Origin: Desulfarculia bacterium
GTDB lineage: Bacteria > Desulfobacterota > Desulfarculia > Adiutricales > JAGVGV01
Reading direction: 5' to 3'
Assembly (NCBI GenBank): GCA_963662445.1
Contig: OY759590.1
Span: 2,560,249-2,624,248 of the forward strand
Length of the DNA stretch: 64,000 nucleotides
Under the pieces are notes generated by a model. It made no database searches. It saw nothing but the letters and a program-made list of their open reading frames with translations, and had not been told where the DNA came from. Position numbers and translations under genes: made by a program. Below, in pieces: positions 37,862 through 53,882 of the stretch. How positions within the stretch are numbered: position 1 is the stretch's first letter; every line of letters begins with the position of its first letter.

Positions 37862-38208
37862 GCCGTCCCCTCTGACGGTCTGTTGTTGACTTAACTTATT
37901 TTACCATTAATAGCGCCGCCTTTCCATATCGGATAGCCCCTCGCAACTAGAAAACGCGGGCCTTCGCGGAGTTCTCTAACTGGCTTCCACCTCTCTGGTT
38001 GGGTAATCTGTTCGTGAGCCAACAAGGTTTCCCACAGTTAGGCGGCTATGGGAAAGCAAGCAGGCTGTGGCCCCCGGGGCTTTGACCTGCCTGCGAGGCT
38101 CCCGCTCAGACACTGTCGCGGGTGAGCTTGGGGCATCCTCGTTCAATCGTCTTTTTCCAGTAAAAATAGCCAGCGAACGCCCTTCAATGAGCTCCTGAAA
38201 TAAGTTTT

Positions 38209-38285
38209 GCTTGACACAAGGAGTTGTTTGTGATGAATTCAATGGTAATTCAATCTGCTTCATGTACGCTTTTATCGTGAATTTG
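38209..38285 (+). promoter_or_regulatory. conserved promoter/operator-like element, copy A (upstream of the hut operon)
   Basis: TTGACA (38211-38216), a 17-nt spacer, then TGaTGAATT (extended -10-like, 38231-38239). This is followed by TTCAAT..TAATTCAAT and GTGAATTT boxes. About 70% ungapped identity over ~76 nt with 52876-52952 (counted by eye). Confidence 0.5.
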
Positions 38286-38648: not shown

Positions 38649-40304
38649 ATGACTCGTCAGATAAAGGCCATGCGTGGTCCTGAGTTGCGCTGCAAGGGGT
38701 GGCGTCAGGAGACTCTCCTGAGAATGCTGGAGAACGTGCTGGAAGTAGGGGAGAGGCCCGAGGATCTGGTCATCTACATGTCCAGCGCCAGAGCTGCCCG
38801 CAACTGGGAATGTTTCGACGAAATTGTCCGCGTTCTCAAGACCATGAATGAGGACGAAACCCTTTTGATTCAGTCCGGCAAGCCGGTGGGGCTTTTTCAG
38901 ACTCATGCCGACGCGCCTCTGGTGATTATGGCCAATGCCAACCTGGTCGGCCAGTACTCCCGTCCCGAAGTCTTTTATGAACTCGAAGCCAAGGGCTTGA
39001 CCATGCCCGCCGGTTTCACGGCCGGCGGTTGGCAATACATAGGCACTCAAGGCATTGTCCAGGGGACCTATATGACTTTTTATGCTGTCGCCAGGCAGTA
39101 CTTCGGCGGCAGCCTGGCCGGAAAATTCGTGGTTACGGGCGGATGCGGCGGCATGGGCGGGGCTCAGCCTCTGGCGGTGACCATGAACGGCGGCGTGGCT
39201 CTGGTTGTGGATGTGAACCCGGCCAAGATACAGCGCCGGGTGGATAACGGATATTGCGACCGTATTGTCTACGACCTTGACGAAGCCCTGCTGCTTTGCC
39301 GCACGGCCTTGGCCGATAAAAGGCCTTTCTCGGTAGGGCTGGTGGGCAATACCGCTGAAGTTCTGCCTGAACTGCTGCGCCGGGGAATAATACCTGATGT
39401 CGTGACCGATCAGACCGCCGCCAGCGATCCCCTGGCGGGCGGATACGTGCCTGCCGGTTTCGATGTCAAACCGGCCGCCGAATTAGCCCGCACCAAGCCG
39501 GAAGAATATTTGAAGGAAGCCTTCAAATCCATGGGCATCCATATGAAAGCCATCCTGGAGTTCCAGAAGAGAGGCGCCGTGGCTTTCGAATACGGCAACC
39601 TGCTCAGGGAAAAAGCCCGGGACCACGGCGGAGTGGCCGATGCATTCGATGTCCCCGGTTTCATGGAGAAATTTATCAGGCCTTTCTTCTGCCAGGGCTG
39701 CGGCCCCTTCCGCTGGATAGCCGTTTCCGGTGATCCCGAGGACATAGATGTGATAGACGAATTGCTGATCCGGGAATTTCCCGATGAGCCGCACATTTCG
39801 GGCTGGCTCAAACTGGCGGCCGGGCATGTCCCCTTTGAGGGCCTTCCCGCCCGTATCTGCTGGGCCTCTCATGGGCAGAGAAGCAGAATAGGGGTCATGG
39901 TCAACAACCTGGTTATGGAAGGCAAGATCAAGGGGCCGGTGGCTTTTACAAGGGATCATCTGGATGCGGCTTCGGTGGCCATGCCTCACCGCGAAACGGA
40001 AAATATGCTTGACGGCAGCGACGCCATTGCCGATTGGCCGTTGCTGAACGCATTGCTCAATGTCACTTGCCGCGCCGACTTGGTCACCATCCATTCGGCG
40101 GCCGGGGGCAGCACCGGGGTGAGCACCAGTTGCGGGACAACCCTGATTGCCGATGGCACACGGCTGGCCGCGACCAGAATCCAGAAGACTCTGGACGCTG
40201 AAACAGGACTGGGAGTCCTTCGATATGCGGATGCGGGGTATGATACCGCCCGGGAATGCGCCCGCACTAACCATATTGGCAAGGTGTCTTTCCTGAGGAC
40301 TTAG
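38649..40304 (+). CDS. hutU: urocanate hydratase
   Basis: 551 aa, colinear with urocanases (GWRQE..LRML.N, GGWQYIGTQGIVQGTY, GGMGGAQPLA). Confidence 0.95.
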   Translation: MTRQIKAMRGPELRCKGWRQETLLRMLENVLEVGERPEDLVIYMSSARAARNWECFDEIVRVLKTMNEDETLLIQSGKPVGLFQTHADAPLVIMANANLVGQYSRPEVFYELEAKGLTMPAGFTAGGWQYIGTQGIVQGTYMTFYAVARQYFGGSLAGKFVVTGGCGGMGGAQPLAVTMNGGVALVVDVNPAKIQRRVDNGYCDRIVYDLDEALLLCRTALADKRPFSVGLVGNTAEVLPELLRRGIIPDVVTDQTAASDPLAGGYVPAGFDVKPAAELARTKPEEYLKEAFKSMGIHMKAILEFQKRGAVAFEYGNLLREKARDHGGVADAFDVPGFMEKFIRPFFCQGCGPFRWIAVSGDPEDIDVIDELLIREFPDEPHISGWLKLAAGHVPFEGLPARICWASHGQRSRIGVMVNNLVMEGKIKGPVAFTRDHLDAASVAMPHRETENMLDGSDAIADWPLLNALLNVTCRADLVTIHSAAGGSTGVSTSCGTTLIADGTRLAATRIQKTLDAETGLGVLRYADAGYDTARECARTNHIGKVSFLRT

Positions 40305-40398
40305 ACCGGCTTTTAATTTGAATGGCCCGAAGTTCCAAGGAAGCGAATAGTGAAGTGCTCAACAAACTAATGAGAACTTTTATGCAAAGGGGGAACTG

Positions 40399-41427
40399 AT
40401 GAAGACCATCAATTTTTGCAGAATCGGAATGGTAGCGCTTTTGACTCTGGCCCTGCTCTTGCCGATTGGACTGACCCCGGCGAAAGCCGTGGCCGAGGAC
40501 AAAACCCTCACGATCATGTTATGGGGCGCGACATGGAATGTGGGCGTAAAGGATGTAGCCAAGAAGTTCGAAGAAAAATACGGCGTCCCGGTCAAGGCCG
40601 TCATGCAGTCAGGGTCCTCCGAGGGGCTGGCCAAGATGATGGCCTCCCAGGGCAAGCCGGGCGTTGACGTTTGGTTCTGCGATGCGGCCATGCCCAGCAC
40701 CGCGCCTCCGGGCCTGATCGCCGACATCGACCCGGCCAAGATTACCAACAGTCCCGATCTGGTTCAAGGCGCTCTCACCAAAAAATACGTAGCCCAACTC
40801 TATTACCCGCAAGGCATCATCTACCGCAAAGACATCTGTCCCATGGAAATTAAAACCTGGGAAGACCTGTGGAAGCCGGAATTCAAAAAACAGCTGGCCG
40901 TCCCGCCGCCGGCCTTCGACCAGGGGACCTTCCTTGTTGTTGCTGCCAAACTCAACGGCGGCAGCGAAACAGACATCCAGCCCGGTTTCGAAAAGATCAA
41001 ACAGCTCATGCCCAACGTGGTCACTTTCTACGACAATGATTCAACTTCCCGCAAGCTGCTGGCCCAGGGCGAAGTGTCGGTTCTCATCGGCAATACCGGC
41101 AGCCTGGATTATCTCACTGAAGCGGGCATTCCTGCGGAAGTCGTCAATCCCAAGCCGACCCCGGTCTCCTTTGACGTCATGACCGTGGTCAACAACGGCA
41201 ATGAGGATCTGGCCCACAAGTTCATAGACATGATGGTTTCCAAGTGGGCTCAGGAAATCTCCGTGCTGCCGCACAAGTGCGCTCCGGTAAACAGCAAGGT
41301 GGACGCCACGGAAATCTTCGCGGGCGACTTTCCCAAGCCCGAAGACTCTCTGATTATCGACCACGCCGCTGTCAAGGACAACCTGGATAAGTGGATAGAG
41401 CAGTGGGACAAGGAATTCGTCAAGTAG
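40399..41427 (+). CDS. ABC transporter periplasmic substrate-binding protein (family 1, PotD-like)
   Basis: Signal peptide (MKTINFCRIGMVALLTLALLLPIGLTPAKA) and a 342-aa PotD/PotF-like sequence. Confidence 0.8.
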   Translation: MKTINFCRIGMVALLTLALLLPIGLTPAKAVAEDKTLTIMLWGATWNVGVKDVAKKFEEKYGVPVKAVMQSGSSEGLAKMMASQGKPGVDVWFCDAAMPSTAPPGLIADIDPAKITNSPDLVQGALTKKYVAQLYYPQGIIYRKDICPMEIKTWEDLWKPEFKKQLAVPPPAFDQGTFLVVAAKLNGGSETDIQPGFEKIKQLMPNVVTFYDNDSTSRKLLAQGEVSVLIGNTGSLDYLTEAGIPAEVVNPKPTPVSFDVMTVVNNGNEDLAHKFIDMMVSKWAQEISVLPHKCAPVNSKVDATEIFAGDFPKPEDSLIIDHAAVKDNLDKWIEQWDKEFVK

Positions 41428-41601
41428 GCGCGTAAGTTGACAATAGGCTCCCCAGACGTGATGACGGGAATCATCCCGTCATCACGGGACAACCGGGCAG
41501 GCGGAACAGAATGCCGCCGGTTCCTGATTCTATCGGCGCCCGCATGTCCGCCCGGCGGGCGCGGTTCCAAGGCAAATACTCCAGGGAAGTAATTGATACC
41601 T

Positions 41602-42720
41602 ATGCAGCAAACATCCCAAACCGATTATGTGGAATTCAGTGATATCTGCAAGGTTTATGGACGCAAGAAAGTACTTTCCGGCGTCTCTTTAACCATTAGA
41701 GAAGGTGAATTGCTCTCTCTGCTGGGGCCGAGCGGATGCGGCAAGACCACGCTTTTGAGAATTCTGGCCGGGTTTGTCACCCCCTCACGGGGCGAAGTCA
41801 GGGTTGGCGGCAAGCTCCTCAACCCCATACCCCCAAACAAGCGTAATGTCGGCATGGTTTTTCAACATTACTGCCTTTTTCCTCACATGACCGTGTACGA
41901 CAACGTTACGTTTGGTCTCAAGATGCGCGGCATGGATCGGAAAAAGATGGATAAAAGGGCTATGGAGTGCCTGGATCTGGTCCATCTGGCCGACCTGAAG
42001 AATCACTATCCCGGTCAATTGAGCGGCGGAATGAAGCAGAGAATCGCGCTGGCCCGCGTTCTCGCCTTCCAGCCAAGTGTTCTTCTCCTGGATGAACCTT
42101 TTGCCGCTCTGGACCGCAATCTTAAGGACGAAATGCAGTTCGAGGTCCGTAAGCTCCAGCAACTGCTAAAGATAACCACTTTGTTCGTGACCCACGACCA
42201 GAAGGAAGCCATGACCATCTCCGACCGCATTGCGGTCATGAATTACGGGCTTATAGAACACGAAGGCAAGCCTCTGGAAATATACGACCATCCACGGACC
42301 AAGTTCGTGGCCGAGTTTCTGGGCGTGCCTCACTTCTTCAGCGCGAAAGTTATAAGCACGAACGGCCGGGAAGCCACCGTGGAGCTGCTGAACGGAAAAA
42401 AGCTGACTGTGCCGGTCACACAAAAGCCTGCTTCGCCGGATGTCTCAATCGCCGTCAGGGCCGAGCGCATTCAGGTCGCCCCCAGGAACAGCAACGGCAG
42501 CGTCCAGAGGAGTCAAAACACGGACGATAGCCTGCATCTCTCAGGCGTTGTAACCTTCACGACAAATGCCGGCTACATCATAACCTACGAAATCCAGATC
42601 CCGGACGGGCCTAAGCTGATTGTCGAGGCTCCGCGACAGGAAAGGTGCGCCGGTTTCGAGCCCGATGACGAGGTGGAAATCACTATCATGGGGCAAAACT
42701 GCACCTTGATCGAAAGGTAA
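41602..42720 (+). CDS. ABC transporter ATP-binding protein (PotA-like, with C-terminal TOBE-like domain)
   Basis: Walker A GPSGCGKTT, signature LSGGMKQR, Walker B LLLDEP. ATG 41602 is preferred over TTG 41593. Confidence 0.9.
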   Translation: MQQTSQTDYVEFSDICKVYGRKKVLSGVSLTIREGELLSLLGPSGCGKTTLLRILAGFVTPSRGEVRVGGKLLNPIPPNKRNVGMVFQHYCLFPHMTVYDNVTFGLKMRGMDRKKMDKRAMECLDLVHLADLKNHYPGQLSGGMKQRIALARVLAFQPSVLLLDEPFAALDRNLKDEMQFEVRKLQQLLKITTLFVTHDQKEAMTISDRIAVMNYGLIEHEGKPLEIYDHPRTKFVAEFLGVPHFFSAKVISTNGREATVELLNGKKLTVPVTQKPASPDVSIAVRAERIQVAPRNSNGSVQRSQNTDDSLHLSGVVTFTTNAGYIITYEIQIPDGPKLIVEAPRQERCAGFEPDDEVEITIMGQNCTLIER

Positions 42721-42727
42721 GCTGACC

Positions 42728-43660
42728 GTGGCAGATGCTTCATTGACGTACGACGGCTCCATGGAAACGATTCTGGGGCAAGACAGAGACTACCAGACAC
42801 TGACCGGGAGAACCCTCTGCTTCCTGCTGGTGCCTACCCTGGTCCTGCTGCTGATTTTCTTCGTCTCCTACCTGTCATTCATCATTGAGAGTTTTCATGA
42901 ACTCGTGCCCGGCCTGGCCATGGTCGGAGACGAATGGACCCTGAACAGCTACCGGCGGTTCTTCGGCGACCCCTTGTATCCGTCCTTTTTGTGGGAATCT
43001 ATATGGCGGTCGGCCGAGATGACGGCCATCACCCTGGTGATTGCCTATCCCCTGGCTTATTTCACCGTGCGAACCAGATCGAATATGGCCAGGTACATCA
43101 TCATGATCGTCATGCTGGTTCCCCTGCTGGCCGGCGGCATCACCATCGCTTATGCCTGGATAATCATGCTGGGTAATGTGGGTCTGGTGAATTCAATCCT
43201 GAAGGGTATAGGCATCATCGACCATCCGATCAAGTTCCTGTACTCATGGCGGGGCGTGGTCATAAGCGTTGTTCATTACCTGGTGCCTTTTGCGGCCCTG
43301 GTCCTACTTGGGCCTATTCAGAACATTCCCCGTTCACTGGAAGAAGCCGCCGTGAACCTGGGCGCGACCAAGCTCAGGGTTTTCGTGAAAGTCATTTTCC
43401 CGCTTACCATATCGGGCGTGATCGAGACGGTCTCCCTGACTTTCGCCTTGGCTTTGAGTTCCTTTCTTTTCCCGCTGCTTCTGGGCGGAGGCCGGGTGAA
43501 GATGATGTCCAACATCATCTATGAAAGGATAGCCATTTCCTACGACCTGCCTTTTGCCGCCGTACTGGCCATCATGTTGCTGTTTGTTTCCCTGGCCACG
43601 GTCCTTGGCCTGGCCCGGTTGCAGAAATTCTACAAACAAAAGTATGAGCAGGGGCTGTGA
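42728..43660 (+). CDS. ABC transporter permease (PotB-like)
   Basis: Six hydrophobic segments and an EAA-like loop (SLEEAAVNLGATKLRVF). Confidence 0.85.
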   Translation: MADASLTYDGSMETILGQDRDYQTLTGRTLCFLLVPTLVLLLIFFVSYLSFIIESFHELVPGLAMVGDEWTLNSYRRFFGDPLYPSFLWESIWRSAEMTAITLVIAYPLAYFTVRTRSNMARYIIMIVMLVPLLAGGITIAYAWIIMLGNVGLVNSILKGIGIIDHPIKFLYSWRGVVISVVHYLVPFAALVLLGPIQNIPRSLEEAAVNLGATKLRVFVKVIFPLTISGVIETVSLTFALALSSFLFPLLLGGGRVKMMSNIIYERIAISYDLPFAAVLAIMLLFVSLATVLGLARLQKFYKQKYEQGL

Positions 43661-44481
43661 GAATGGCATTTATCAAGCGGCGTAACGACTTCAGCATGAT
43701 CGGCCCGGGCCTGAGCATCACCGTGGCGGCAATTGTCATCTTTATTGCCATGCCGGTGGTTTTCACCATAGCCTATTCATTCAACCCGAGTCCCTATTTC
43801 GGATTTTCCGTCACCCGTCTTTCCCTGAGGTGGTATTTCAACCTGTTTTCACTCGACTACTTCAGGCACGCTTTTCTCGTAAGCCTCGGTCTGGCGGCCT
43901 GCGTGATGCCTCTGGCCACCTTGTTCGGCATGGGAGCAGCCTATGCCCTGGTCAGGGGAGAATTCAAGGGCAAGGAATTGCTGAATTCGCTGGTGCTGTC
44001 GCCGATTGTGGTTCCGGGCATCATCACCGGTATGGCCCTGCTGACTTTTTACAGCATCGTCTGTCTGAACTGGAGCTTCGGCAAGCTGGTTCTGGCCATG
44101 ACCATCTGTACCGTGGCCTATCCCATCAGAACCATAACGGCAAATCTTCACGGACTCACTTCCCACATAGAGGAAGCCGCCATCAATATGGGCGCCAGCC
44201 GCTGGACCACCTTCTGGCGGATCGTCTTTCCTCAGATTGGGCCGGGAATCCTCAGCGGATGCATCTTCATATTCACCATGGTGCTCGAAGACGTATCCAT
44301 TGTCATCTTCCTGGTGGACATGCACACCAATACCCTGGCCATAGAAGCCATGAACTACATGCGGACCATGGATGATCCGACCATAGCGGCCATGTCCACC
44401 ATGCTGATCGTCATGACTCTGCTGCTGGCCCTGGTCATCGAAAAATTCATCGGTATCGGCAAGTTTATGAGCCTGGATTAG
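43657..44481 (+). CDS. ABC transporter permease (PotC-like)
   Basis: EAA-like loop (HIEEAAINMGASRWTTFW). Overlaps the upstream stop by 4 nt. Confidence 0.85.
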   Translation: MRMAFIKRRNDFSMIGPGLSITVAAIVIFIAMPVVFTIAYSFNPSPYFGFSVTRLSLRWYFNLFSLDYFRHAFLVSLGLAACVMPLATLFGMGAAYALVRGEFKGKELLNSLVLSPIVVPGIITGMALLTFYSIVCLNWSFGKLVLAMTICTVAYPIRTITANLHGLTSHIEEAAINMGASRWTTFWRIVFPQIGPGILSGCIFIFTMVLEDVSIVIFLVDMHTNTLAIEAMNYMRTMDDPTIAAMSTMLIVMTLLLALVIEKFIGIGKFMSLD

Positions 44482-44490
44482 AAGTCAGAT

Positions 44491-45651
44491 ATGAAAAAAG
44501 AGATCACTGAATACCTGGAAAGCATCAAGCACCAGCCGCTGAAGCACATCGAAGCTCTGGTGAATATCGAAACCAGTTCCCACGACAAGGAAGGTGTCGA
44601 CAGGGCCGGAGCATATATGGCCCGCGAACTTGAGCGCATAGGTTTTCTCATTGAAAAGAGGCCTCAAGAGGTCATCGGCGACCAGATACTGGCCCGCCGC
44701 CTTTTCGGCGGGCGGGGCCGGGTCCTTATTCTGGGGCATCTGGATACGGTCTGGCCCAAAGGGACCCTGGCCGGTTGGCCTTATGCCGTTACCAGCGACG
44801 GTTTTGCCGTGGGGCCTGGGGTTGGAGATATGAAAGGCGGCATAGTGGTCGCCCTGACCGCGCTGGAGGCGCTTATGGCCACAGGCGCGGCGGACCATCT
44901 GGAATCAATTACCTTCATGCTTGTTCCGGATGAAGAGATAGGCTCGCCCATCTCCCGGACCTGGATAGAAGAGGAAGGCGGCAAGGCCGACTGGGCCCTG
45001 GTCATGGAGCCTGGCCGGGAGAACGGCGGCGTGGTCACCAAAAGGGCGGTCATGGGCCGGTTCACCATAACCGCTCATGGCGTGAGTGCTCACTGCGCCG
45101 TGAATAAAGGTGAAGGGGCCAGCGCCATCAGGGAACTCGCGGCCAAGGTGGCCCTCCTGGAGGACCTGACCCGGATAGACCTCGGGATACTGGTCAATGT
45201 GGGGTTGTTCAAGGGGGGCGAGGCTCGGCAGGTTATTCCGGCCAGGGCGGAGATGGAGATAGATTACCGGGCTCCCAGCCAGGACGAAGCCGACAGGCTG
45301 GTGGAAAACATCCGCCGGATAGCCCTGCACAAACTGAATTCCAAGGTCTCCATCGAGTTGGAAGGACGGCAGTCGCGCCCGGAATTTCCCCGCTCTCCGG
45401 GCACGTTGGAACTCTACCGCCGGGCCCTGGCTATCGCCAATGAGATGGAAATGCCTTTACCGGAAATACACACCAAGGGCGGATCGGACGGCAGTTTCGT
45501 GGCCGCGCTGGGGGTGCCCACACTGGATGGGCTCGGCCCCATCGCCCTGGACGATTGCAGCCGCCGGGAACGGCTGCTCATCAGCAGCATCATACCCAGA
45601 ACACGCCTGCTGGCCAGACTGATCGCCGGTCTCGGCCAAGCGGAAAATTAA
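44491..45651 (+). CDS. M20-family metallohydrolase (carboxypeptidase G2 / dipeptidase / aminoacylase-like)
   Basis: LGHLDTV, GPGVGDMKGG, PDEEIGS, GGSDG motifs of the M20 family. Substrate not assignable. Confidence 0.8.
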   Translation: MKKEITEYLESIKHQPLKHIEALVNIETSSHDKEGVDRAGAYMARELERIGFLIEKRPQEVIGDQILARRLFGGRGRVLILGHLDTVWPKGTLAGWPYAVTSDGFAVGPGVGDMKGGIVVALTALEALMATGAADHLESITFMLVPDEEIGSPISRTWIEEEGGKADWALVMEPGRENGGVVTKRAVMGRFTITAHGVSAHCAVNKGEGASAIRELAAKVALLEDLTRIDLGILVNVGLFKGGEARQVIPARAEMEIDYRAPSQDEADRLVENIRRIALHKLNSKVSIELEGRQSRPEFPRSPGTLELYRRALAIANEMEMPLPEIHTKGGSDGSFVAALGVPTLDGLGPIALDDCSRRERLLISSIIPRTRLLARLIAGLGQAEN

Positions 45652-45693
45652 AATACGGACGTTGAAACGGCCTGAGTTCGAGGAGAAAACGTA

Positions 45694-47226
45694 ATGGTTG
45701 TTTTGAAGATAAATGGCAATAATCTGCAACTGGAAGACGTCATAAACGTTGCCTTGTACGGGCAGAAAGTTAAATTGGATTCCGACAGCCGCCGCGCCGT
45801 TACGGCCGCCTACAGGCAGGTGGAGAGAGCGGTTGTGCAGAATCTCAAGATATACGGTATAACAACCGGCCTGGGCCATTTGAGTGAAGTAAGCATCAGC
45901 CAGGAGATGACCAAAAAACTTCAGGAAAACCTGATCCTGAGCCATTGTTCTGGCGTCGGCGACGAATTCCCCGTGGAGATATGCCGGGCCATGATGCTGC
46001 TCCGGGCCAACGCCCTGGCCAAAGGTTATTCCGGAGTGCGCCCCGAAATCATCGAAAATCTTCTGACGCTGCTGAACGCCGGGATCACTCCGGTGATATT
46101 CAAACAGGGATCGGTCGGGGCCAGCGGTGATCTTGTTCCGCTGGCTCACATGGCCCTGCTTCTGACCGGCAAGGGCAATGCCCGCCGGAATGGAACACTC
46201 ATAACCGGTGTGGAGGGACTCAAAGCCGCCGGTTTGGAGCCAATGGAACTTGAGGCCAAGGAAGCATTGGCCCTGGTCAACGGAACCCAGGCCATGGCCT
46301 CCGTTTGCGCCCTCACCCTGAGCCGGGGATTGCATCTGGCCAAGGTGGCCGACATCGCCGGAGCAATGACTCTCGAAGCTCTGGGAGGCACGGCGGCCGC
46401 CTTTGATGCCAGAATCCATCAAGCCCGTCCCATCCCCGGCCAGGGTGAGGTGGCCGCAAACGTCCTCAAAGTCGTCAATGGCAGCTCGATCACGCCGCCT
46501 AGCCTGAATTCCAGGGTTCAGGACGCCTATTCTCTCCGCTGCATGCCCCAGGTTCACGGAAGTGTGCGGGAGGTTTTGAAGTTCGTCCGTTACCTTCTGG
46601 AGATTGAACTGAACTCCGCCACCGACAACCCTCTGGTTTTCCCGGAAGACGGCGATTTCCTGTCCGGCGGCAATTTCCATGGCGAACCTCTGGCCTTTGC
46701 CGGAGACTTCATGAGTATTGCCCTATCGGAACTGGCCAACATTAGTGACCGCCGCAGCGCCCGGCTGACCGATCCTCATTGCAGCGACCTGCCGCCCAGC
46801 CTTTCCAAATTCGCCGGTGAAGGCAACTGTTTCGGCATCCTGCAGATTGTCACCGCGTCTCTGGTTTCGGACAATAAGTCCTTGGCTCACCCGGCCAGCG
46901 TGGACAGCGTGCCCACCAGCGCCAACCAGGAAGATCACGTGAGCATGGGGCTCAACGCCGCCCGTAAGGCCTGCGATATAGCGGACAACCTGGAAAATGT
47001 CCTGGCCATAGAATGCATCTGCGCGGCCCAGGCCCTGGATTTTGTGGGGCTGGAGCGTTGCGGACGGGGAACCCGGGCGGCTCATGCGGCCATAAGGACC
47101 TGTATGCCCTGGGTTGACGGAGATGTGGCCAGACTTTTCTCGGATGACATAAGGGTGGTCAGGGAATTCATAACCAGCGGAAAATTTCTGCAAGCCGTGG
47201 TCGAGTCTGTAGGGGAGCTGCATTGA
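45694..47226 (+). CDS. hutH: histidine ammonia-lyase
   Basis: 510 aa. MIO-forming GASGDLVPLAH, NGTQ and QEDHVSMG motifs. Confidence 0.93.
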   Translation: MVVLKINGNNLQLEDVINVALYGQKVKLDSDSRRAVTAAYRQVERAVVQNLKIYGITTGLGHLSEVSISQEMTKKLQENLILSHCSGVGDEFPVEICRAMMLLRANALAKGYSGVRPEIIENLLTLLNAGITPVIFKQGSVGASGDLVPLAHMALLLTGKGNARRNGTLITGVEGLKAAGLEPMELEAKEALALVNGTQAMASVCALTLSRGLHLAKVADIAGAMTLEALGGTAAAFDARIHQARPIPGQGEVAANVLKVVNGSSITPPSLNSRVQDAYSLRCMPQVHGSVREVLKFVRYLLEIELNSATDNPLVFPEDGDFLSGGNFHGEPLAFAGDFMSIALSELANISDRRSARLTDPHCSDLPPSLSKFAGEGNCFGILQIVTASLVSDNKSLAHPASVDSVPTSANQEDHVSMGLNAARKACDIADNLENVLAIECICAAQALDFVGLERCGRGTRAAHAAIRTCMPWVDGDVARLFSDDIRVVREFITSGKFLQAVVESVGELH

Positions 47227-48503
47227 CGGTTTTTCCCGGACATCCCGACCTGATTATCCATAACGCCGGAGAACTGGCCACCCTGGCTTCAACGGGAAGA
47301 GGACCCCGATGCGGCCGGGATATGGATGAAATAGCCTCTGTAAAAAAAGGGGCTGTGGCCGTGGCTGGCGGCCGGATACTGGCCGCCGGTCCCGAGGATG
47401 AAATCACGGCCCGGTTTGAAGCCGGGCCGGAAACCCGGTTGATTGACGCCGGGGGGCGTTTTGTCTCTCCTGGACTCGTGGATGCCCACACCCACCTGGT
47501 TTTCGCCGGGTCACGCGAAAATGAGTTTCGCCTGAAAATAGTAGAGGGGCTGAGCTACGGCGAGATAGAACGCCTGGGCGGGGGGGTGCCTGAGTCGGTG
47601 AGGCAGACCAGGGCCGCCAGCCTGGAAACCCTGCTGGACCAAGCCCGCCCGGTCCTCCGGCGGATGATGAGAAACGGCGTCACCACCATAGAAGCCAAAA
47701 GCGGCTATGCTTTGAACACCGCGGGAGAGATCAGGCTGCTCGAAGCCATGCGTATTCTGGACCGGGAAGGCCCGGTTGAGATAGTGCCCACTTTGTTCGG
47801 AGCACACGACATGCCTCCGGAATACTCCGCCCGGCCGGAAGGTTTTCTTGAACTCATCATCAGCGAGATGATTCCCGCCGTGGCCGCCCGAGGCTTGGCC
47901 AGATTTTACGACAGCGGTGTTACCTTTCCTCCTGAACAGACCGCCCGGCTTTTTGAAGCCGCCAAGGCGCACGGGCTTCGGCCCAAGGTCCATGCCGACG
48001 AGTTCGCCCATATGGGCGGCGCGGCTTTGGCCGCCCGCTGTGGAGCCATCAGTGCCGAGCATTGTCTGAACTCCACCCCGGAAGACCTGGAAGCCATGCG
48101 CCGGGCCGGAGTCATGGCCGTGCTGCTGCCGGCGATCCCCATAGTGCACCGCCTGAAACAATCCGTGGATGCCCGCCGGTTTATCGACGCCGGGCTGGCC
48201 GTAGCCCTGGGGACTGATTTCAATCCCAGTTGCCCGGTTGAATCATTGTCCATGGTCATGTCCCTGGGATGCTACACAAGCGGCATGAGTCCGGCCGAAG
48301 CCCTGACTTCGGCCACGGTCAATTCAGCCCATGCCATTGGCCGGGGGGGCGAGATCGGCTCCCTGGAACCGGGAAAACAGGCTGATCTGGTGATCTGGGA
48401 TGTGGCCAATCACTTGCAACTCTGCGCCAATCCCAGCGGCGGCCTGGCTGGCATGGTCGTCAAGAAAGGCGAGATTGTCTGGGAAAGCTGTTCTTCCCGC
48501 TGA
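47223..48503 (+). CDS. hutI: imidazolonepropionase
   Basis: GLVDAHTHLVFAGSRENEF, KVHADE, GTDFNP motifs. The TTG start overlaps the hutH stop. Confidence 0.9.
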   Translation: MTVFPGHPDLIIHNAGELATLASTGRGPRCGRDMDEIASVKKGAVAVAGGRILAAGPEDEITARFEAGPETRLIDAGGRFVSPGLVDAHTHLVFAGSRENEFRLKIVEGLSYGEIERLGGGVPESVRQTRAASLETLLDQARPVLRRMMRNGVTTIEAKSGYALNTAGEIRLLEAMRILDREGPVEIVPTLFGAHDMPPEYSARPEGFLELIISEMIPAVAARGLARFYDSGVTFPPEQTARLFEAAKAHGLRPKVHADEFAHMGGAALAARCGAISAEHCLNSTPEDLEAMRRAGVMAVLLPAIPIVHRLKQSVDARRFIDAGLAVALGTDFNPSCPVESLSMVMSLGCYTSGMSPAEALTSATVNSAHAIGRGGEIGSLEPGKQADLVIWDVANHLQLCANPSGGLAGMVVKKGEIVWESCSSR

Positions 48504-48517
48504 TCTGAGGTTTTGCC

Positions 48518-48778
48518 ATGGACCAGAAAGCTTTTGCGATGCTGACAGCCCTGAGCGGCCTTGAACTGTCGGAGAGCCGCTCAAAGGAACTGTACGACTA
48601 CAGCCGGCAGTTGTTCGCCAGTCTGAAGCCGCAACCGGGACAGGATGATTCCGCTGATGAAGCGACGGCTGACCAGGTGAAGCGGATATTCGGCAAAGCC
48701 CGCTCCATCCAGGAACTGGACCTGGCCCGGGTGGAACCGGCCGTGAATTTCGGCATCGAACACCTGTCCGGGGATTGA
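48518..48778 (+). CDS. small protein, possible GatC/AtzG-like partner of the downstream amidase
   Basis: 86-aa ORF located 6 nt upstream of an amidase-signature gene. Assignment is by position and size only. Confidence 0.35.
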   Translation: MDQKAFAMLTALSGLELSESRSKELYDYSRQLFASLKPQPGQDDSADEATADQVKRIFGKARSIQELDLARVEPAVNFGIEHLSGD

Positions 48779-48784
48779 GGCCAT

Positions 48785-50203
48785 ATGTCAGCCAACGATC
48801 TCTGCTTCATGGGTATCAAAAAACTGGCCGAACTGCTCGGCCACGGTGAGATTTCGCCGGTCGAACTGACCACGGCCTGTCTGGACCGTATTGAAGCCTA
48901 TGACGCCAGAATAAATTCATTTATCAATGTATTTCGGGATGAAGCCTTGGCTCGGGCCCGGTTGGCCGAGGAGGAGATATTCAAAGGGGGCTGGCGCGGC
49001 CCGCTGCATGGAATCCCCTTCGGGCTGAAAGATCTTTTCATGGTCCAGGGTAAACCTTTCACCCTGGGCAGCCGGCTTTTTCATGATGAGATTGCTTCCC
49101 TGGACAGCACGGTGGCTCTGCGCCTGAGGCAGGCCGGGGCTATACTCCTGGGCAAACAGAACATGAATCCGCTGGCTTATGGCCCTTTTGCCACGGAACC
49201 GGGATACGACTACGGCCATACCTTCAATCCCTGGGATACAACACGCATCTCCGGCGGCTCCAGCGGCGGCTCCGGAGCGGCCGTAGCGGCTGGGTTCTGC
49301 CCCTTCTCCGTGGGCAGCGATACGGGCGGTTCGGTCCGCATACCGGCGGCCTGGTGCGGGACCGTGGCCATGAAGCCCACCTATGGGCGCATCAGCAGGC
49401 ATGGAGTGCAGGCACTGGCCTGGAGCCTGGATCATCCGGGGCCTTTCACCCGGCGGGTGGAAGACTGCGCCCTGGTGATGCAGGTCCTTAGCGGCCACGA
49501 CCCAATGGACCCGTCTTCCGCCGGAAAAAAAGCGCCTTTTTTTTCGGGCCTGCTGAACAGTGACATCAAGGGCCTGAAAATCGGCCTTCCAGTTGAATAC
49601 TGGCAGCTCCCCCTGGATCCGGAAGTGAAAAAAAAGGCCGAACAGGCCGTCATGGTCCTTGAGGAACTGGGGGCCGAGACGGTGGAATTGTCCTGGCCCA
49701 TGCTGGCCTATGCGGAAAATACCAGCAACATCATCCTGCTGGCCGAAGCATCCTCCGCTTATGAGCAGTTGGTGAAGCAGCAAGGCCAAAGGCTTTGGCC
49801 TGCCTTGAGGTTGCGGCTGGAAGCCGGTCTGCTGCTTTCGGCGGCCGACTATCTGCGGGCTCAGAAAGCCAGAACTCTGCTCGTCGCGGAAACCAACCGG
49901 CTATTCGAGAAGGTCGACCTGCTCGCCGGACCGGCCATGCCGGTCACCGCCAGCCGCCCCGGACAGGCCCTGGTGCAGGCCGGTGAGAATGAGATAGGGG
50001 TCGTCAGGGCCATGACCCAGTACAACGAGGTCTTCAATCTGACCGGACATCCGGCCCTCTGCCTGCCCTGCGGCTTTTCCGCGTCGGGACTCCCCATCGG
50101 CCTGCAACTGGTGGGAAGGCCTTTTGCCGAGGCGCTTGTTTTACAAGCGGGCCAGGCCTTCGAAACGGCGACCGGTTTCTGGAAGCCGAGGCCCGAACTT
50201 TAA
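48785..50203 (+). CDS. amidase-signature family amidase (GatA/AtzE-like)
   Basis: GIPFGLKDL (catalytic Lys), GGSSGGSGAAVAAG, GSDTGGSVRIPA. Confidence 0.88.
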   Translation: MSANDLCFMGIKKLAELLGHGEISPVELTTACLDRIEAYDARINSFINVFRDEALARARLAEEEIFKGGWRGPLHGIPFGLKDLFMVQGKPFTLGSRLFHDEIASLDSTVALRLRQAGAILLGKQNMNPLAYGPFATEPGYDYGHTFNPWDTTRISGGSSGGSGAAVAAGFCPFSVGSDTGGSVRIPAAWCGTVAMKPTYGRISRHGVQALAWSLDHPGPFTRRVEDCALVMQVLSGHDPMDPSSAGKKAPFFSGLLNSDIKGLKIGLPVEYWQLPLDPEVKKKAEQAVMVLEELGAETVELSWPMLAYAENTSNIILLAEASSAYEQLVKQQGQRLWPALRLRLEAGLLLSAADYLRAQKARTLLVAETNRLFEKVDLLAGPAMPVTASRPGQALVQAGENEIGVVRAMTQYNEVFNLTGHPALCLPCGFSASGLPIGLQLVGRPFAEALVLQAGQAFETATGFWKPRPEL

Positions 50204-50231
50204 AATCTGTTGTGAGGAGAGTCTTATACCA

Positions 50232-51638
50232 ATGCCTGAGATAATGCCCAACGAATACCGGCCCGCATCGTTGTCCGACGTGCGGAAGCTTCACGAAGCC
50301 TCCTTGCACATCCTGGAAAAAAACGGCCTGGCCTTCCATCATCAGGGAGCCCTTGAGCTATTCAGAAAGGCCGGAGCCCACATCGACGGCGACATTGTGC
50401 GCATCAAGCCAGCCCTGGTCGATTGGGCCTTACAGGCAGCGCCCAAGGAATTGACCATCTATAACCGAAATCTGGAACCGGCCATGCTGATCGGGGGCGG
50501 ACGCCGAACGAGTTATTACGGAGTGGGTTCGGACAGCATCTATATCTACGACCTCGAAAACGGCCAGCGCCGCAAAGCTGTTCTTCGTGACATATCTGAA
50601 GGCATGCGGCTTGTCTCCGGCCTTTCCAATGTCGACTTTGTCATGTCCATGTTCGTTCCCTCGGATATTTCGGCCGAGGATTACGGGCGTCATCAGATGC
50701 TGGTGATGCTCAACGAGAACATCAAGCCCATTGTCTTCACCGGGGTGACCAGGGAATGCGTCGCGGAGGCGATAGGCATGGCGGCCCTGGTGCACGGGCG
50801 GGATGAACTGAGTAAAAAACCCTTTATCATAAATTACGTCAACACCGTCACCGCGCTTAAGCACAACGAGGAGAGCGTGCAGAGGCTTATGGAAGCGGCC
50901 GTGGAAAATATACCCACCATCTATGCGCCCGGCAACTCCAGAGGCACCACGGCACCCATGACCGTGGCCGGTATGCTGGCCCTGGGCAACGCCGGGCAGT
51001 TGGGCGGGCTGGTGCTGTCCCAGTTGGTGCGAGAAGGCTCGCCGTTTATCCTGAACAATCCCAGCGTGGGTGTTATGGACATGAAAACCATGGTGGACCT
51101 GTATGTCAGCCCTGACGGCGGCATATACAGTTGCGCCCTGGCCAATCATTACGGTCTGGCAGCGCTCTGTTCAGCCGGGGCCAGCGACTCCAAGGTTTTT
51201 GACGGGCAGGCCGCCGGTGAAGCCTGCCTGACCCTCTTCAGCAATACCTTCCGGGGGGCCAACCTGATACAGAATCTGGGTTACCTGGATTCGGCCATGA
51301 CCGGCAGCTTTGAACTGATTGTCTTTTGCGATGAGATAATAGGCTGGCTGAAGCGGTTTATGGAACCGCTGGAGGTCAATGACGAAACTCTGGCCCTGGA
51401 TGTCATTGACCAGGCCGCGCCTGGGTGCAATTTCATCGCTACGGAACACACCTTCCGCCATTTCCGGGATGACTGGCAGCCCCGCCTGTTGGACCGCTGG
51501 AGTTTCAGCCAGTGGGAACAGAACGGATGCCAGAGTCTCAACCGGAGGGCCAATGCACTGGCCCGCGATCTTCTGTCAAAGGCCCCGGTTGAGCCTTTGC
51601 CGCCGGAAACTCTGGCCGGGCTTAAGGCCATGCTCTAG
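50232..51638 (+). CDS. MttB-superfamily (COG5598) corrinoid-dependent methyltransferase, non-pyrrolysine type
   Basis: About 468 aa, colinear with the second MttB homologue at 53883. Uninterrupted frame with no in-frame TAG. GAGGAG RBS upstream of ATG 50232. Confidence 0.85.
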   Translation: MPEIMPNEYRPASLSDVRKLHEASLHILEKNGLAFHHQGALELFRKAGAHIDGDIVRIKPALVDWALQAAPKELTIYNRNLEPAMLIGGGRRTSYYGVGSDSIYIYDLENGQRRKAVLRDISEGMRLVSGLSNVDFVMSMFVPSDISAEDYGRHQMLVMLNENIKPIVFTGVTRECVAEAIGMAALVHGRDELSKKPFIINYVNTVTALKHNEESVQRLMEAAVENIPTIYAPGNSRGTTAPMTVAGMLALGNAGQLGGLVLSQLVREGSPFILNNPSVGVMDMKTMVDLYVSPDGGIYSCALANHYGLAALCSAGASDSKVFDGQAAGEACLTLFSNTFRGANLIQNLGYLDSAMTGSFELIVFCDEIIGWLKRFMEPLEVNDETLALDVIDQAAPGCNFIATEHTFRHFRDDWQPRLLDRWSFSQWEQNGCQSLNRRANALARDLLSKAPVEPLPPETLAGLKAML

Positions 51639-51653
51639 TCCGTGAAAAAATTG

Positions 51654-51685: not shown

Positions 51686-51699
51686 AGTATCTCTGCGGA

Positions 51700-52515: not shown

Positions 52516-52875
52516 AGAAAACAGCTTCCGTGAAATATACCTATCTCTTGAATAGTAATGAATAAATACAGTTGGCCTCGCGGGTTTACGGCCTTCCGGT
52601 TCGACCCGGAGGCGATATTATGAATTTAGTATGAATCAATTGTGTTGTCTATATCAATTCAATATACCCGCAAGCCTGGCCCAATCTAAACCCGGCTGCT
52701 GAACGGCTACGCAAATCAGGTGGCCTGAACTTCGACCGTCTGGGGAACGGTGGAAAAACAATCGCATACAGCTTCTGTTTTTCCCCTTGGTATTCAAGTT
52801 TTTCAATTCTTTCCGGGCTGTCCGCTTTTTGCTGTTTGGCCGCGCCATCTTGCCGGATCGGGCCGCGATTAATTT

Positions 52876-53847: not shown

Positions 53848-53882
53848 TAAATTACCTGAAAAAGGACAGAAGGATATAAAAG

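What the first reader, a model, noticed from the sequence alone, without database searches (positions are those of the whole stretch)
38209..38285. The same ~76-nt promoter/operator-like element precedes the hut operon and the corrinoid methyltransferase operon
Segments 38209-38285 and 52876-52952 align without gaps at about 70% identity (my manual count is roughly 53 of 76). The aligned region runs from a perfect TTGACA, through a 17-nt spacer and a TGnTGAATT extended -10-like box, into conserved downstream boxes (TTCAAT-nn-TAATTCAA and CG.CTTTAT.GTGAATTT). Both copies lie 300-430 nt upstream of their operons, so both leaders are long. The antisense ORFs called at 37976-38329 and 52649-52975 look homologous only because of this DNA element. 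The shared architecture argues that histidine catabolism and the corrinoid methyltransfer system form one regulon. It also argues that the repeated (A)TTCAAT / GTGAAT half-sites bind a common factor.
Basis: seen in the sequence. Interest (0 to 1): 0.65.

Follow-up and report, generated by a model that had tools for sequence, protein, structure and literature searches.

The report
Shared promoter-operator of a hut/methyltransferase regulon
The two similar ~80-base segments are real, evolutionarily conserved promoter-plus-repressor-site modules that most likely put histidine-breakdown genes and vitamin-B12-dependent methyltransferase genes under one neighbouring GntR-type regulator; this is an ordinary kind of control device, with a new DNA motif and an unusual gene combination.

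Summary
Window 38209-38285 and 52876-52952 align without gaps at 55/77 identities, and nothing else in the 64 kb exceeds 41/76.

Both copies are sharp conservation islands (64-76% identity against 40-55% in the flanks). They sit at the orthologous positions in eight related genomes: four copies upstream of hutU and four upstream of the corrinoid-protein gene.

The anatomy is CTTGACA, a 17-nt spacer, then T(G/A)AATT. This is followed by two ATTCA boxes 11 bp apart that overlap the -10/+1 region. A 13-mer, TTTRTNRTGWATT, occurs twice, 44 bp apart.

ATTCA-N6-ATTCA occurs exactly four times in the window (0.27 expected). All four lie in promoters of this cluster, each oriented with its gene: hutU, the divergent racemase-like gene, the corrinoid operon, and the GntR/FCD regulator gene itself. 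A sequence profile of the element finds only these promoter classes in 255 kb.

There is no Rfam hit, no covariation, no conserved leader and no sigma-54 promoter. The antisense ORFs are not conserved.

Best reading: a sigma-70-type promoter with an overlapping operator for the syntenic, autoregulated GntR/FCD repressor, forming a four-promoter local regulon. This is inferred; no transcription start or binding data exist.

The device is a known kind with a new motif. The co-regulated hut-plus-MttB/corrinoid gene set is the more interesting part.

The parts
38203..38285 (+). Full element copy A, upstream of hutU. It contains an AT-rich tract, the -35 CTTGACA, a 17-nt spacer, TGn plus the TGAATT -10-like hexamer, boxes O1 and O2, and the distal box O3.
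   Evidence: It is conserved at the orthologous site in L089, L090/L091, L092 and L093. Profile R1 scores it at 73.4 bits, E=3e-21.
38211..38216 (+). -35 hexamer TTGACA of copy A.
   Evidence: CTTGAC is invariant in 10/10 aligned copies.
38231..38239 (+). TGA + TGAATT: an extended -10-like motif and the -10-position hexamer of copy A, 17 nt after the -35.
   Evidence: The hexamer is TAAATT in L092 and L093 and TGnATT preceded by TGn in the other eight copies.
38237..38252 (+). Operator core O1-O2 of copy A: ATTCA-N6-ATTCA, a direct repeat with an 11-bp period.
   Evidence: 4 matches in the window, 0.27 expected.
38271..38284 (+). Distal box O3 of copy A (TTTATCGTGAATTT). It is the second copy of the 13-mer TTTRTNRTGWATT, 44 nt after the first at 38227-38239.
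   Evidence: It is conserved in all 10 copies.
52870..52952 (+). Full element copy B, upstream of the corrinoid-protein/MttB/pterin-methyltransferase operon.
   Evidence: It is conserved in L072, L073, L074, L075 and L076. R1 scores it at 74.7 bits, E=1e-21.
52878..52883 (+). -35 hexamer TTGACA of copy B.
52898..52906 (+). TGG + TGAATT: the extended -10-like motif and -10-position hexamer of copy B.
52904..52919 (+). Operator core O1-O2 of copy B (ATTCA-N6-ATTCA).
52938..52951 (+). Distal box O3 of copy B (TTTATTGTGAATTT).
52621..52651 (-). Predicted promoter of the divergent racemase-like gene: TAGACA-N17-TAAATT. An ATTCA-N6-ATTCA box pair (52636-52621) overlaps the spacer and the -10.
   Evidence: The equivalent sites in L072, L073 and L076 are shown. 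R1 gives E=0.013-0.03 in L076 and L073.
56564..56616 (+). Promoter of the regulator gene: TTGACA (56564-69), an 18-nt spacer, TATATT (56588-93), then the operator TGTATTCA-CAG-TTAATTCAA (56597-56616) at about +1 to +20.
   Evidence: R1 gives E=9e-5 here, 1e-4 in L072 and 6e-4 in L073.
56655..57266 (+). GntR-family regulator with an FCD effector domain (203 aa from the ATG). It is the candidate repressor.
   Evidence: Pfam GntR 45.5 bits and FCD 74.6 bits, both above the cut-offs. Orthologues lie on the same contigs as the cluster.
38649..51638 (+). Regulated operon 1: hutU, an ABC importer, an M20 hydrolase, hutH, hutI, an 86-aa ORF, an amidase and MttB-family methyltransferase 1.
   Evidence: The same gene order is found in L073/L089, L074, L090, L092 and L093.
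51700..52515 (-). Regulated gene: Asp/Glu/hydantoin-racemase-like protein (NF005679 subfamily).
53179..56204 (+). Regulated operon 2: a corrinoid protein, MttB-family methyltransferase 2 and a pterin-binding methyltransferase.
   Evidence: Synteny is shown.

Best explanation
Each ~83-bp segment is a sigma-70-type promoter fused to a multi-box operator.

Promoter. RNA polymerase would use CTTGACA as the -35. After a fixed 17-nt spacer it would use T(G/A)AATT as the -10, helped by a TGn extended -10 where the hexamer is weak.

Operator. Two ATTCA boxes 11 bp apart (one helical turn) overlap the -10 and the predicted start site. A third related box, GTGAATT, lies 44 bp downstream of the first.

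Repressor. A protein bound to these boxes would exclude or trap polymerase. The best candidate is the GntR-family regulator with an FCD effector domain encoded at 56655-57266. An effector derived from the pathway substrate would release it.

Regulon. The same box pair sits in the regulator's own promoter (autoregulation) and in the promoter of the divergent racemase-like gene. Four transcription units therefore form one local regulon. It couples the hutU-hutH-hutI/transport/MttB1 operon to the corrinoid protein/MttB2/methyl-THF methyltransferase operon.

Shown here: the repeat, its conservation, its geometry, and its exclusive occurrence at these four promoter classes.

Inferred: promoter use, the sign of regulation, the identity of the binding protein and the effector.
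For: Pair similarity. 55/77 identities, with no other copy in the window. The corrected P is 1e-7 to 1e-5.

Conservation. Orthologous copies lie upstream of the corrinoid gene in L072-L076 and upstream of hutU in L089-L093. All align without gaps. Identity is 64-76% inside the element and 40-55% in the flanks.

Promoter features:
- CTTGAC is invariant and the 17-nt spacer is fixed.
- The hexamer is TAAATT in L092 and L093, where TGn is absent.
- The hexamer is TGnATT with TGn present in 8/8 other copies.

Operator distribution:
- ATTCA-N6-ATTCA gives 4 hits in 64 kb against 0.27 expected, and 0 of 100 shuffles reach 4. All four are in promoters of the cluster and co-oriented with the gene.
- In about 190 kb of related loci, all 14 hits fall in the same four promoter classes.
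- The 26-nt PWM ranks the gntR-upstream site third in the window and second in L073, L074 and L075.
- Profile R1 finds only gntR promoters (E=9e-5, 1e-4, 6e-4) and racemase-like promoters (E=0.013-0.03) beyond the full copies in 255 kb.
- The gntR promoter is itself a conserved island in which the boxes follow TTGACA-N18-TATATT.

Regulator. It carries GntR and FCD domains. It is syntenic in relatives. Its orthologue family is narrow, with 13 clusters at 66% identity or more, and lies on the same contigs as the cluster.

Gene logic. MttB1 in operon 1 has its corrinoid and methyl-THF partners only in operon 2.

Precedent. GntR/FadR-subfamily regulators that use direct repeats or extra boxes 7-12 nt from the main site are documented (PMC4494728, PMC8012715).
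Against: There is no transcription start, expression or binding data.

The -10-position hexamer of both window copies is TGAATT, with G at position 2, where sigma-70 promoters almost always have A. The consensus scanner does not call it. An alternative weak promoter inside the element, TTCAAy-N18-TATyGT, cannot be excluded.

The box sequence does not fit the usual FadR-subfamily palindrome TKGT-N2-3-ACMA. Only the gntR-promoter site approaches TKGT-N4-ACMA.

The TGn/-10 reciprocity rests on one phylogenetic split (L092 and L093 against the rest).

In L076 the gntR promoter lacks the second ATTCA box.

The rest of the source genome could not be scanned. The regulon may therefore be larger, or the motif may belong to a more global factor.
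Confidence: 0.65

Rival explanations
1. The promoter-operator architecture and the regulon are as described, but the boxes are bound by a different protein. Candidates are a response regulator of the OmpR/PhoB type, which typically reads direct repeats with a 10-11-bp period, or a more global factor. In this reading the GntR gene is merely one of the targets.
For: The ATTCA-N6-ATTCA direct repeat with an 11-bp period is the classic geometry of winged-helix response regulators (my own knowledge). The boxes do not fit the usual FadR-subfamily palindrome described in PMC4494728. The genome outside the window could not be searched.
Against: No such regulator is syntenic with the cluster in relatives. 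The GntR/FCD gene is syntenic and carries the boxes in its own promoter in at least four genomes. Direct-repeat operators are known within the GntR family, for example NanR and FarR (PMC4494728).
Confidence: 0.2
2. The element is an upstream activating sequence (enhancer) for one of the NtrC-type sigma-54 activators encoded in the window (34956-36296 or 57725-59173). The real promoter would then be a -24/-12 site further downstream, which would explain the long distance to the start codons.
For: A PAS histidine kinase and a sigma-54 activator are divergent from hutU, and a second activator follows gntR. The element lies 300-430 nt before the ATGs. A near-sigma-54 sequence, TTGGCATATCAATTGGCATTA, is at 38494-38514.
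Against: Neither copy has a GG-N10-GC promoter-like site downstream of it. The 38494 sequence has 11-nt spacing and lies in a window-specific insertion. The kinase/activator pair is absent upstream of hutU in L089, L090, L092 and L093. In L075 and L093 only about 50-75 nt separate the element from the ATG, leaving no room for an enhancer-promoter arrangement. CTTGACA at a fixed 17 nt from a -10-like hexamer is unexplained by this model.
Confidence: 0.03
3. The conserved block is transcribed and acts as RNA. It could be a 5' leader element or small RNA, for example a hairpin between the AAUUCA of box O2 and the UGAAUU of box O3, or an unknown riboswitch.
For: O2 and O3 are inverted repeats that pair in 93% of cells. 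L074 shows one double change that keeps the pair. Leaders are 230-400 nt in most genomes.
Against: No Rfam family matches at the gathering threshold or at E<=1. The RNAalifold consensus is -0.66 kcal/mol with 0 covarying pairs. The single compensatory cell is reached by 106 of 500 shuffles. Single-sequence folds are not consistently better than shuffles: z = -2.5, +0.6, -0.1 and -1.1. Half of the conserved block (the -35 and spacer) would lie upstream of any transcript. The leader sequence and length are not conserved. No terminator-like hairpins occur in the leaders. The L074 change also fits a TGWATT half-site seen in other boxes.
Confidence: 0.05
4. The two segments are copies of a dispersed or mobile repeat, or a recent intragenomic duplication or gene-conversion tract, with no regulatory role.
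For: They are two similar non-coding segments 14.7 kb apart. The source genome outside the window could not be scanned.
Against: There are only two full copies in 64 kb, and copies in 190 kb of relatives occur only at orthologous positions. Both copies are retained across species whose HutU proteins are only 79-88% identical, while the flanks have randomised. The copies have no terminal inverted repeats and no extension beyond about 83 bp. Public genome and metagenome scans returned only isolated chance-like hits without the -35 or O3 parts.
Confidence: 0.02

Closest known systems
NanR and its (GGTATA)3 operator in Escherichia coli (GntR family, FadR subfamily with FCD domain; PMC8012715)
   Same: It is a local catabolic repressor of the same domain type. 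It binds tandem direct repeats rather than the family's usual palindrome, and several dimers assemble cooperatively over the promoter. A pathway metabolite relieves binding.
   Different: The NanR repeats are contiguous 6-bp units. Here the boxes are ATTCA with an 11-bp period, plus a third box 44 bp away. Sequence similarity of the regulator to NanR is marginal (NCBIfam 35 bits against a cut-off of 260). Binding is untested here.
FadR-subfamily GntR operators with an additional half-site box 7-12 nt from the main site, and autoregulatory sites in divergent or adjacent operons (comparative study PMC4494728)
   Same: The regulator gene is next to its target operons. There are sites in its own promoter and in the structural-gene promoters. 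A main site is accompanied by a weaker neighbouring box about one helical turn away.
   Different: The usual consensus TKGT-N2-3-ACMA is not met. The best sites here read TKGW-ATTC-AMW. The orthologue group is not in that study and is restricted to a small uncultured clade.
HutC-controlled hut operons of Pseudomonas and Klebsiella (GntR family, HutC subfamily, urocanate as inducer; my own knowledge)
   Same: A GntR-family repressor controls several hut promoters, including its own, through operators that overlap the promoters.
   Different: The regulator here has an FCD domain, not a UTRA effector domain. The operator sequence differs. The regulon also contains two MttB-family methyltransferases, a corrinoid protein and a pterin-binding methyltransferase.
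FarR (MngR) direct repeats TGTATTAWTT (HutC subfamily; cited in PMC4494728)
   Same: A GntR-family winged helix reads direct repeats that begin TGTATT. The boxes in the gntR promoter here read TGTATTCA.
   Different: FarR belongs to a different subfamily and has a different repeat length and regulon. The resemblance covers six bases and was not tested.

Membership tests
Sigma-70-type promoter | -35 hexamer close to TTGACA | tested here: met
   TTGACA is perfect in both window copies. CTTGAC is invariant in 10/10 orthologous copies.
Sigma-70-type promoter | Spacer of 16-18 nt between the hexamers | tested here: met
   The spacer is 17 nt in all 10 full copies, whose alignment has no gaps. It is 18 nt in the gntR promoter and 17 nt in the racemase-like promoter.
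Sigma-70-type promoter | -10 hexamer close to TATAAT, with A at position 2 and T at position 6 | tested here: inconclusive
   The window copies read TGAATT, with G at position 2, and the scanner does not call them. L092 and L093 read TAAATT at the same place. A TGn extended -10 is present in the 8 copies with the weak hexamer.
Sigma-70-type promoter | Mapped transcription start 5-9 nt after the -10 | not testable with these tools
   No transcript data are available.
Operator of a GntR-family (FadR/FCD subfamily) repressor | A regulator with an N-terminal GntR winged helix and a C-terminal FCD domain encoded at the locus | tested here: met
   Pfam GntR scores 45.5 bits (cut-off 27) and FCD scores 74.6 bits (cut-off 24.3) for 56634/56655-57266. 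The gene is syntenic in L072-L076.
Operator of a GntR-family (FadR/FCD subfamily) repressor | Palindromic site matching TKGT-N2-3-ACMA | tested here: not met
   The main copies read TGA-ATTC-AA. Only the gntR-promoter site, TTGT-ATTC-ACAG, approaches the pattern, with a 4-nt centre. Direct-repeat exceptions exist in the family (PMC4494728).
Operator of a GntR-family (FadR/FCD subfamily) repressor | Site in the regulator's own promoter (autoregulation) as well as in target promoters | tested here: met
   The window site 56597-56616 is the third-best PWM hit in 64 kb. The equivalent site is second best in L073, L074 and L075. Profile E-values are 9e-5 to 6e-4. The region is a conserved island.
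Operator of a GntR-family (FadR/FCD subfamily) repressor | Direct, effector-sensitive binding of the protein to the site | not testable with these tools
   This needs EMSA or footprinting.
Sigma-54 enhancer (UAS) with a downstream -24/-12 promoter | A GG-N10-GC promoter between the element and the gene | tested here: not met
   No candidate lies downstream of either copy. The 38494-38514 sequence has the wrong spacing and is window-specific.
Sigma-54 enhancer (UAS) with a downstream -24/-12 promoter | A cognate activator conserved with the element | tested here: not met
   The kinase/activator pair is absent from the hutU-upstream regions of L089, L090, L092 and L093.
Cis-regulatory leader RNA / riboswitch (including the cobalamin riboswitch) | Match to a described RNA family | tested here: not met
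   There are 0 Rfam hits at the gathering threshold in the whole window and 0 at E<=1 in both intergenic regions.
Cis-regulatory leader RNA / riboswitch (including the cobalamin riboswitch) | Conserved secondary structure supported by covariation | tested here: not met
   RNAalifold gives -0.66 kcal/mol and 0 compensatory pairs. The O2:O3 helix has 1 compensatory cell, not above the shuffles.
Dispersed repeat / MITE / REP element | Many copies at unrelated loci | tested here: inconclusive
   No such copies occur in the 64-kb window or in 190 kb of related loci. Public scans gave only chance-like partial hits. The remainder of the source genome was not available.
ARG box (ArgR operator) | An 18-bp palindrome TGAAT-N4(AT-rich)-ATTCA, usually in tandem pairs | tested here: not met
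   TGAAT and ATTCA overlap here (TGAATTCA), or ATTCA recurs as a direct repeat 11 bp on. No TGAAT-N4-ATTCA unit is present. The family definition is from my own knowledge.

The most novel reading that the evidence does not exclude
The four-promoter regulon marks an undescribed anaerobic pathway. In it, a methylated histidine-related compound would be imported, demethylated by two non-pyrrolysine MttB-family enzymes through one corrinoid protein onto tetrahydrofolate, and then degraded by HutH/HutU/HutI together with an AtzE-like amidase and an M20 hydrolase. The clade-specific GntR/FCD protein would be its dedicated sensor, and it would read an atypical three-box, helically phased operator. 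No paper in the searchable library links urocanate or hut genes with MttB or corrinoid methyl transfer.
Probability: 0.3. Interest if true: 0.65.

Novelty: new member of a known kind. Interest (0 to 1): 0.4.

Why it matters
The element gives a concrete, testable cis-regulatory code for an uncharacterised GntR/FCD regulator in an uncultured bacterial clade. That code consists of the boxes, their spacing and four target promoters.

It also provides independent, regulation-based evidence that classical histidine-utilisation genes and a cobalamin-dependent MttB methyltransferase system work together. Substrates of most non-pyrrolysine MttB enzymes are unknown. A regulon that ties two of them to hutH/U/I narrows the search for their substrate, and supplies a candidate sensor protein whose ligand could reveal it.

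As a regulatory device it is conventional.

Tried and rejected
1. Sigma-54 enhancer idea. A scan for GG-N10-GC promoters found none downstream of either copy, and the activator and kinase are not syntenic. Rejected.

2. Known RNA families. Rfam gave nothing at the gathering threshold or at E<=1.

3. RNA structure. RNAalifold, single-sequence folds and a direct count on the O2:O3 inverted repeat gave no support.

4. Genome-collection scan with TGAATTCAATNNTAATTCAA. It returned 71 single hits in unrelated, mostly AT-rich taxa, and none extends into the rest of the element.

5. Metagenome scan with TTTRTGRTGMATTCANNNNWAATWCAA. It returned 10 hits, none with the -35 or O3. Five are one locus inside an ORF. 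I treated these as chance.

6. Exact-protein look-up of the corrinoid protein found nothing. Relatives were reached through MttB2 and HutU homologues instead.

7. Leader peptides and attenuators. There are no conserved small ORFs and no terminator-like hairpins in the leaders.

8. ARG box, CRP/FNR, Rex and IHF consensus sequences were compared by eye from memory. None fits.

9. Organism identity could not be established. The sources give no names apart from 'MAG: Pseudomonadota bacterium' for one relative.

10. Literature searches for ergothioneine+MttB, hercynine+corrinoid, thiourocanate hydratase, and urocanate+trimethylamine methyltransferase returned nothing relevant.
Full report
**Observation**

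They align without gaps at 55 of 77 positions, and MAFFT returns the same gapless block.

When either copy is slid along both strands of the window, the mean score is 19 (sd 3.9). The best unrelated position reaches 41 of 76, so the window holds exactly two full copies. The binomial tail for 55/77 is 1e-17 to 1e-15. After correction for every pair of positions it is 1e-7 to 1e-5.

| Feature | Copy A | Copy B |
|---|---|---|
| TTGACA | 38211-38216 | 52878-52883 |
| Spacer | 17 nt | 17 nt |
| TGn + TGAATT (hexamer) | 38234-38239 | 52901-52906 |
| AATTCAAT-nn-TAATTCAA | present | present |
| TTTATyGTGAATTT | 38271-38284 | 38271-38284 + 14667 = 52938-52951 |

**Gene context**

Pfam and NCBIfam give the following layout.

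- Copy A lies in the 788-nt gap between a PAS histidine kinase plus an NtrC-type sigma-54 activator (34956-37861, minus strand) and an eleven-gene operon.
- That operon runs hutU (38649), an ABC importer, an M20 hydrolase, a histidine ammonia-lyase with the MIO motif GSVGASGDL, hutI, an 86-aa ORF, an AtzE-like amidase, and a non-pyrrolysine MttB-family methyltransferase that ends at 51638.
- Copy B lies in the 664-nt gap between a divergent Asp/Glu/hydantoin-racemase-like gene (51700-52515, minus strand) and a second operon.
- The second operon encodes a corrinoid protein (53179), a second MttB (34% identical to the first) and a pterin-binding methyltransferase.
- A GntR-family regulator with an FCD domain follows at 56655-57266.

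The first operon therefore contains a corrinoid-dependent methyltransferase whose corrinoid partner and methyl-acceptor enzyme are encoded only in the second operon. Co-regulation makes functional sense for that reason.

**Comparative evidence**

Homologues of MttB2 and HutU led to contigs from related uncultured bacteria with the same gene order.

The element is present at the orthologous place:
- Upstream of the corrinoid gene in L072 (same species), L073, L074, L075 and L076.
- Upstream of hutU in L089 (the same contig as L073), L090/L091, L092 and L093.

All ten distinct copies align without a single gap.

In alignments of the whole intergenic regions the element stands out as an island. 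Identity to the window copy is 64-76% inside the element and 40-55% in both flanks, which is what MAFFT gives for unrelated DNA.

A more distant cluster, L094 (HutU 76% identical, with an RpiR regulator upstream), has no element.

The predicted leader length, measured from the hexamer to the ATG, varies from about 87 nt (L093) and 114 nt (L075) to about 403 nt (window hutU). The leader sequence is not conserved. The 'long leader' is therefore not a conserved property.

**Anatomy**

The ten-copy consensus is AATTT-CTTGACAc-(10 variable)-TTTrTGrTGaATTCAa-nn-ttAATtCAa-nnTG-(13 variable)-TTTAT-y-GTGaATT.

Three points stand out.

*Promoter-like geometry.* CTTGAC is invariant and lies exactly 17 nt before a hexamer. 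That hexamer is TAAATT in the two most diverged copies (L092, L093). It is TGAATT, TGCATT or TGTATT in the other eight. Those eight, and only those, have TGn directly in front of the hexamer. This is the pattern expected of a -35/-10 promoter in which an extended -10 compensates for a poor -10. It rests on one phylogenetic split, and G at position 2 of the hexamer is unusual. The consensus scanner does not call the window copies for that reason.

*Box pair O1-O2.* The hexamer overlaps the first of two ATTCA boxes spaced 11 bp apart.

*Repeated 13-mer.* The 13-mer TTTRTNRTGWATT occurs without mismatch four times in the window. These are two per element, 44 nt apart. A third box, O3, therefore sits about four helical turns downstream of O1.

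**The same boxes at two further promoters**

The bare pattern ATTCA-N6-ATTCA has four matches in the 64-kb window, against 0.27 expected. None of 100 shuffles reaches four. The four matches are:

| Position (strand) | Promoter |
|---|---|
| 38237 (+) | hutU |
| 52904 (+) | corrinoid operon |
| 56600 (+) | upstream of the GntR gene |
| 52636-52621 (-) | upstream of the divergent racemase-like gene |

Each match is oriented with the gene it precedes.

- At gntR the boxes follow a good promoter, TTGACA-N18-TATATT, and cover about +1 to +20.
- At the racemase-like gene they overlap the spacer and -10 of TAGACA-N17-TAAATT.
- In about 190 kb of related loci, all 14 matches of ATTCA-N6-ATT[CA]A fall into these same four promoter classes.
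- A 26-nt weight matrix built from the ten full copies ranks the gntR-upstream site third in the window and second in L073, L074 and L075.
- The gntR promoter is itself a conservation island.
- A sequence-only profile of the whole element (R1) searched over 255 kb finds the eleven full copies (E below 1e-13). It then finds only gntR promoters (window E=9e-5, L072 1e-4, L073 6e-4) and racemase-like promoters (E=0.013-0.03).

**The regulator**

The GntR/FCD gene is adjacent to the second operon in the window, L072, L073, L074 and L075. It lies a few genes away in L076, where it is 77% identical.

Its orthologue group is very small. There are 13 clusters at 66% identity or more among 5.8 billion proteins.

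By contrast, the kinase and sigma-54 activator next to hutU in the window are replaced in relatives by sarcosine-oxidase-like genes, a PKD-repeat protein, unrelated enzymes or transposases.

**Mechanism proposed**

A sigma-70-type promoter is overlapped by an operator made of helically phased boxes, and the neighbouring, autoregulated GntR/FCD protein occupies that operator. Boxes at the -10/+1 (two large operons), at the spacer/-10 (racemase-like gene) and at +1/+20 (gntR) are all positions from which a bound protein blocks polymerase. Repression relieved by a pathway metabolite is therefore the most likely logic.

O3 may stabilise a higher-order complex.

*Shown:* repeat, conservation, geometry and exclusive distribution.

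*Inferred:* promoter use, repression, and the identity of the protein and the effector.

**Rivals**

- *Sigma-54 enhancer.* There is no GG-N10-GC promoter downstream of either copy. The activator is not syntenic. In L075 and L093 there is no room between the element and the gene.
- *RNA element.* Rfam gives no hit at the gathering threshold or at E<=1. RNAalifold gives -0.66 kcal/mol and no covariation. Single-sequence folds are not consistently better than shuffles. The O2:O3 inverted repeat has a single compensatory change, which 106 of 500 shuffles equal.
- *Coding.* The antisense ORFs 37976-38329 and 52649-52975 are open in the window, but their frame has one to four stops in six of the eight relatives and is open in L076 and L093.
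- *Dispersed repeat.* No extra copies occur in the window or in related loci. Public genome and metagenome scans returned only isolated partial matches lacking the -35 and O3. The rest of the source genome could not be scanned.
- *A different binding protein.* This remains the main open alternative. An 11-bp direct repeat is typical of OmpR-type response regulators, and the boxes do not fit the usual FadR-subfamily palindrome.

**Comparison with known systems**

The device works like the local repressor-operator systems of the GntR family. These are typically autoregulated, have sites in several promoters of one catabolic cluster, and are relieved by an effector.

Within the FadR/FCD subfamily the usual operator is a TKGT-N2-3-ACMA palindrome. 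Exceptions with direct repeats exist (NanR TGGTATAW, FarR TGTATTAWTT), and extra boxes 7-12 nt from the main site are frequent (PMC4494728). NanR assembles three dimers on three tandem repeats over its promoter (PMC8012715).

The present boxes fail the palindrome test. I therefore file the element as working like such an operator, not as a proven member.

It also parallels HutC control of hut operons (my own knowledge). However, the regulator has an FCD rather than a UTRA domain, and the regulon includes cobalamin-dependent methyl transfer.

**Novelty and interest**

As a regulatory device this is a new member of a known kind: a new motif for an uncharacterised, clade-restricted regulator.

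The more interesting implication is biological. The conserved shared control, together with the split of MttB1 from its corrinoid partner, argues that histidine utilisation and MttB-type methyl transfer form one pathway. The searchable literature does not describe such a link.

NCBIfam places hutH, hutU and hutI above their cut-offs. hutU scores even higher against the (S-methyl)thiourocanate hydratase models, though below their cut-offs. The substrate therefore remains open.

Overall interest is 0.4.

Noticed in passing
window 38649-56204: The 'hut' operon is unusual. It combines hutU/H/I with an ABC importer, an M20 hydrolase, an 86-aa ORF directly before an AtzE-like amidase (possibly a GatC/AtzG-like small subunit), and a non-pyrrolysine MttB. 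The corrinoid protein, a second MttB (34% identical) and the pterin-binding methyltransferase lie in the next operon. HutU scores higher against the NCBIfam (S-methyl)thiourocanate hydratase models than against hutU, but below their cut-offs. No paper in the library links hut genes with MttB.
   Followed up: partly
window 38494-38514 (and 34956-37861, minus strand): TTGGCATATCAATTGGCATTA resembles a sigma-54 -24/-12 promoter, but its GG..GC spacing is 11 nt instead of 10. It lies in a roughly 95-nt stretch of the hutU leader that L089 and L090 lack. The adjacent PAS kinase and sigma-54 activator pair is also specific to this genome. This may be a lineage-specific second layer of control, or it may be chance.
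   Followed up: partly
L089 828-4592; L076 9540-13954: Heterotetrameric sarcosine-oxidase-like genes (DAO, SoxD, Fer2_4, SO_alpha_A3/GCV_T) lie next to the cluster in two relatives. This hints at further N-demethylation steps associated with the pathway.
   Followed up: no
L094 9700-10001: A more distant version of the same operon (HutU 76% identical) lacks the element. It has an RpiR-type regulator (HTH_6 + SIS) immediately upstream and a different TTGACA-containing promoter region. The regulator and operator have apparently been swapped.
   Followed up: no
L076 15600-15660: The promoter of the orthologous GntR gene (77% identical) keeps TTGACA and one GTATTCA box. It replaces the second direct box with an inverted arrangement, TGAAT-N9-ATTCA.
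   Followed up: no
L093 1-9544: In this relative the hut cluster is preceded by IS66- and IS91-type transposases, a phage-type integrase and a reverse transcriptase. The element lies only about 50 nt before hutU. The cluster may be mobile or recently rearranged.
   Followed up: no
L074 5461-6880 and 9351-10000, 12898-13164: The amidase is split into two ORFs. No corrinoid-protein gene was called between the element and MttB2. A B12-binding_2 fragment lies after gntR. These may be frameshifts from assembly errors or real gene decay.
   Followed up: no
L079, L081, L084, L086, L088 (e.g. L086 968-994): Five sediment metagenome contigs share one 27-nt match to the O1-O2 pattern (TTTTGTGGTGAATTCAGRGTAAATACAA). 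It lies inside a 156-aa ORF and has no -35 or O3. I judged it a chance match present in several samples.
   Followed up: partly
window 57725-59173: A second sigma-54 activator (receiver + AAA+ domains) directly downstream of gntR shows no HTH_8 DNA-binding domain in Pfam. A similar gene abuts gntR in L075 on the opposite strand.
   Followed up: no
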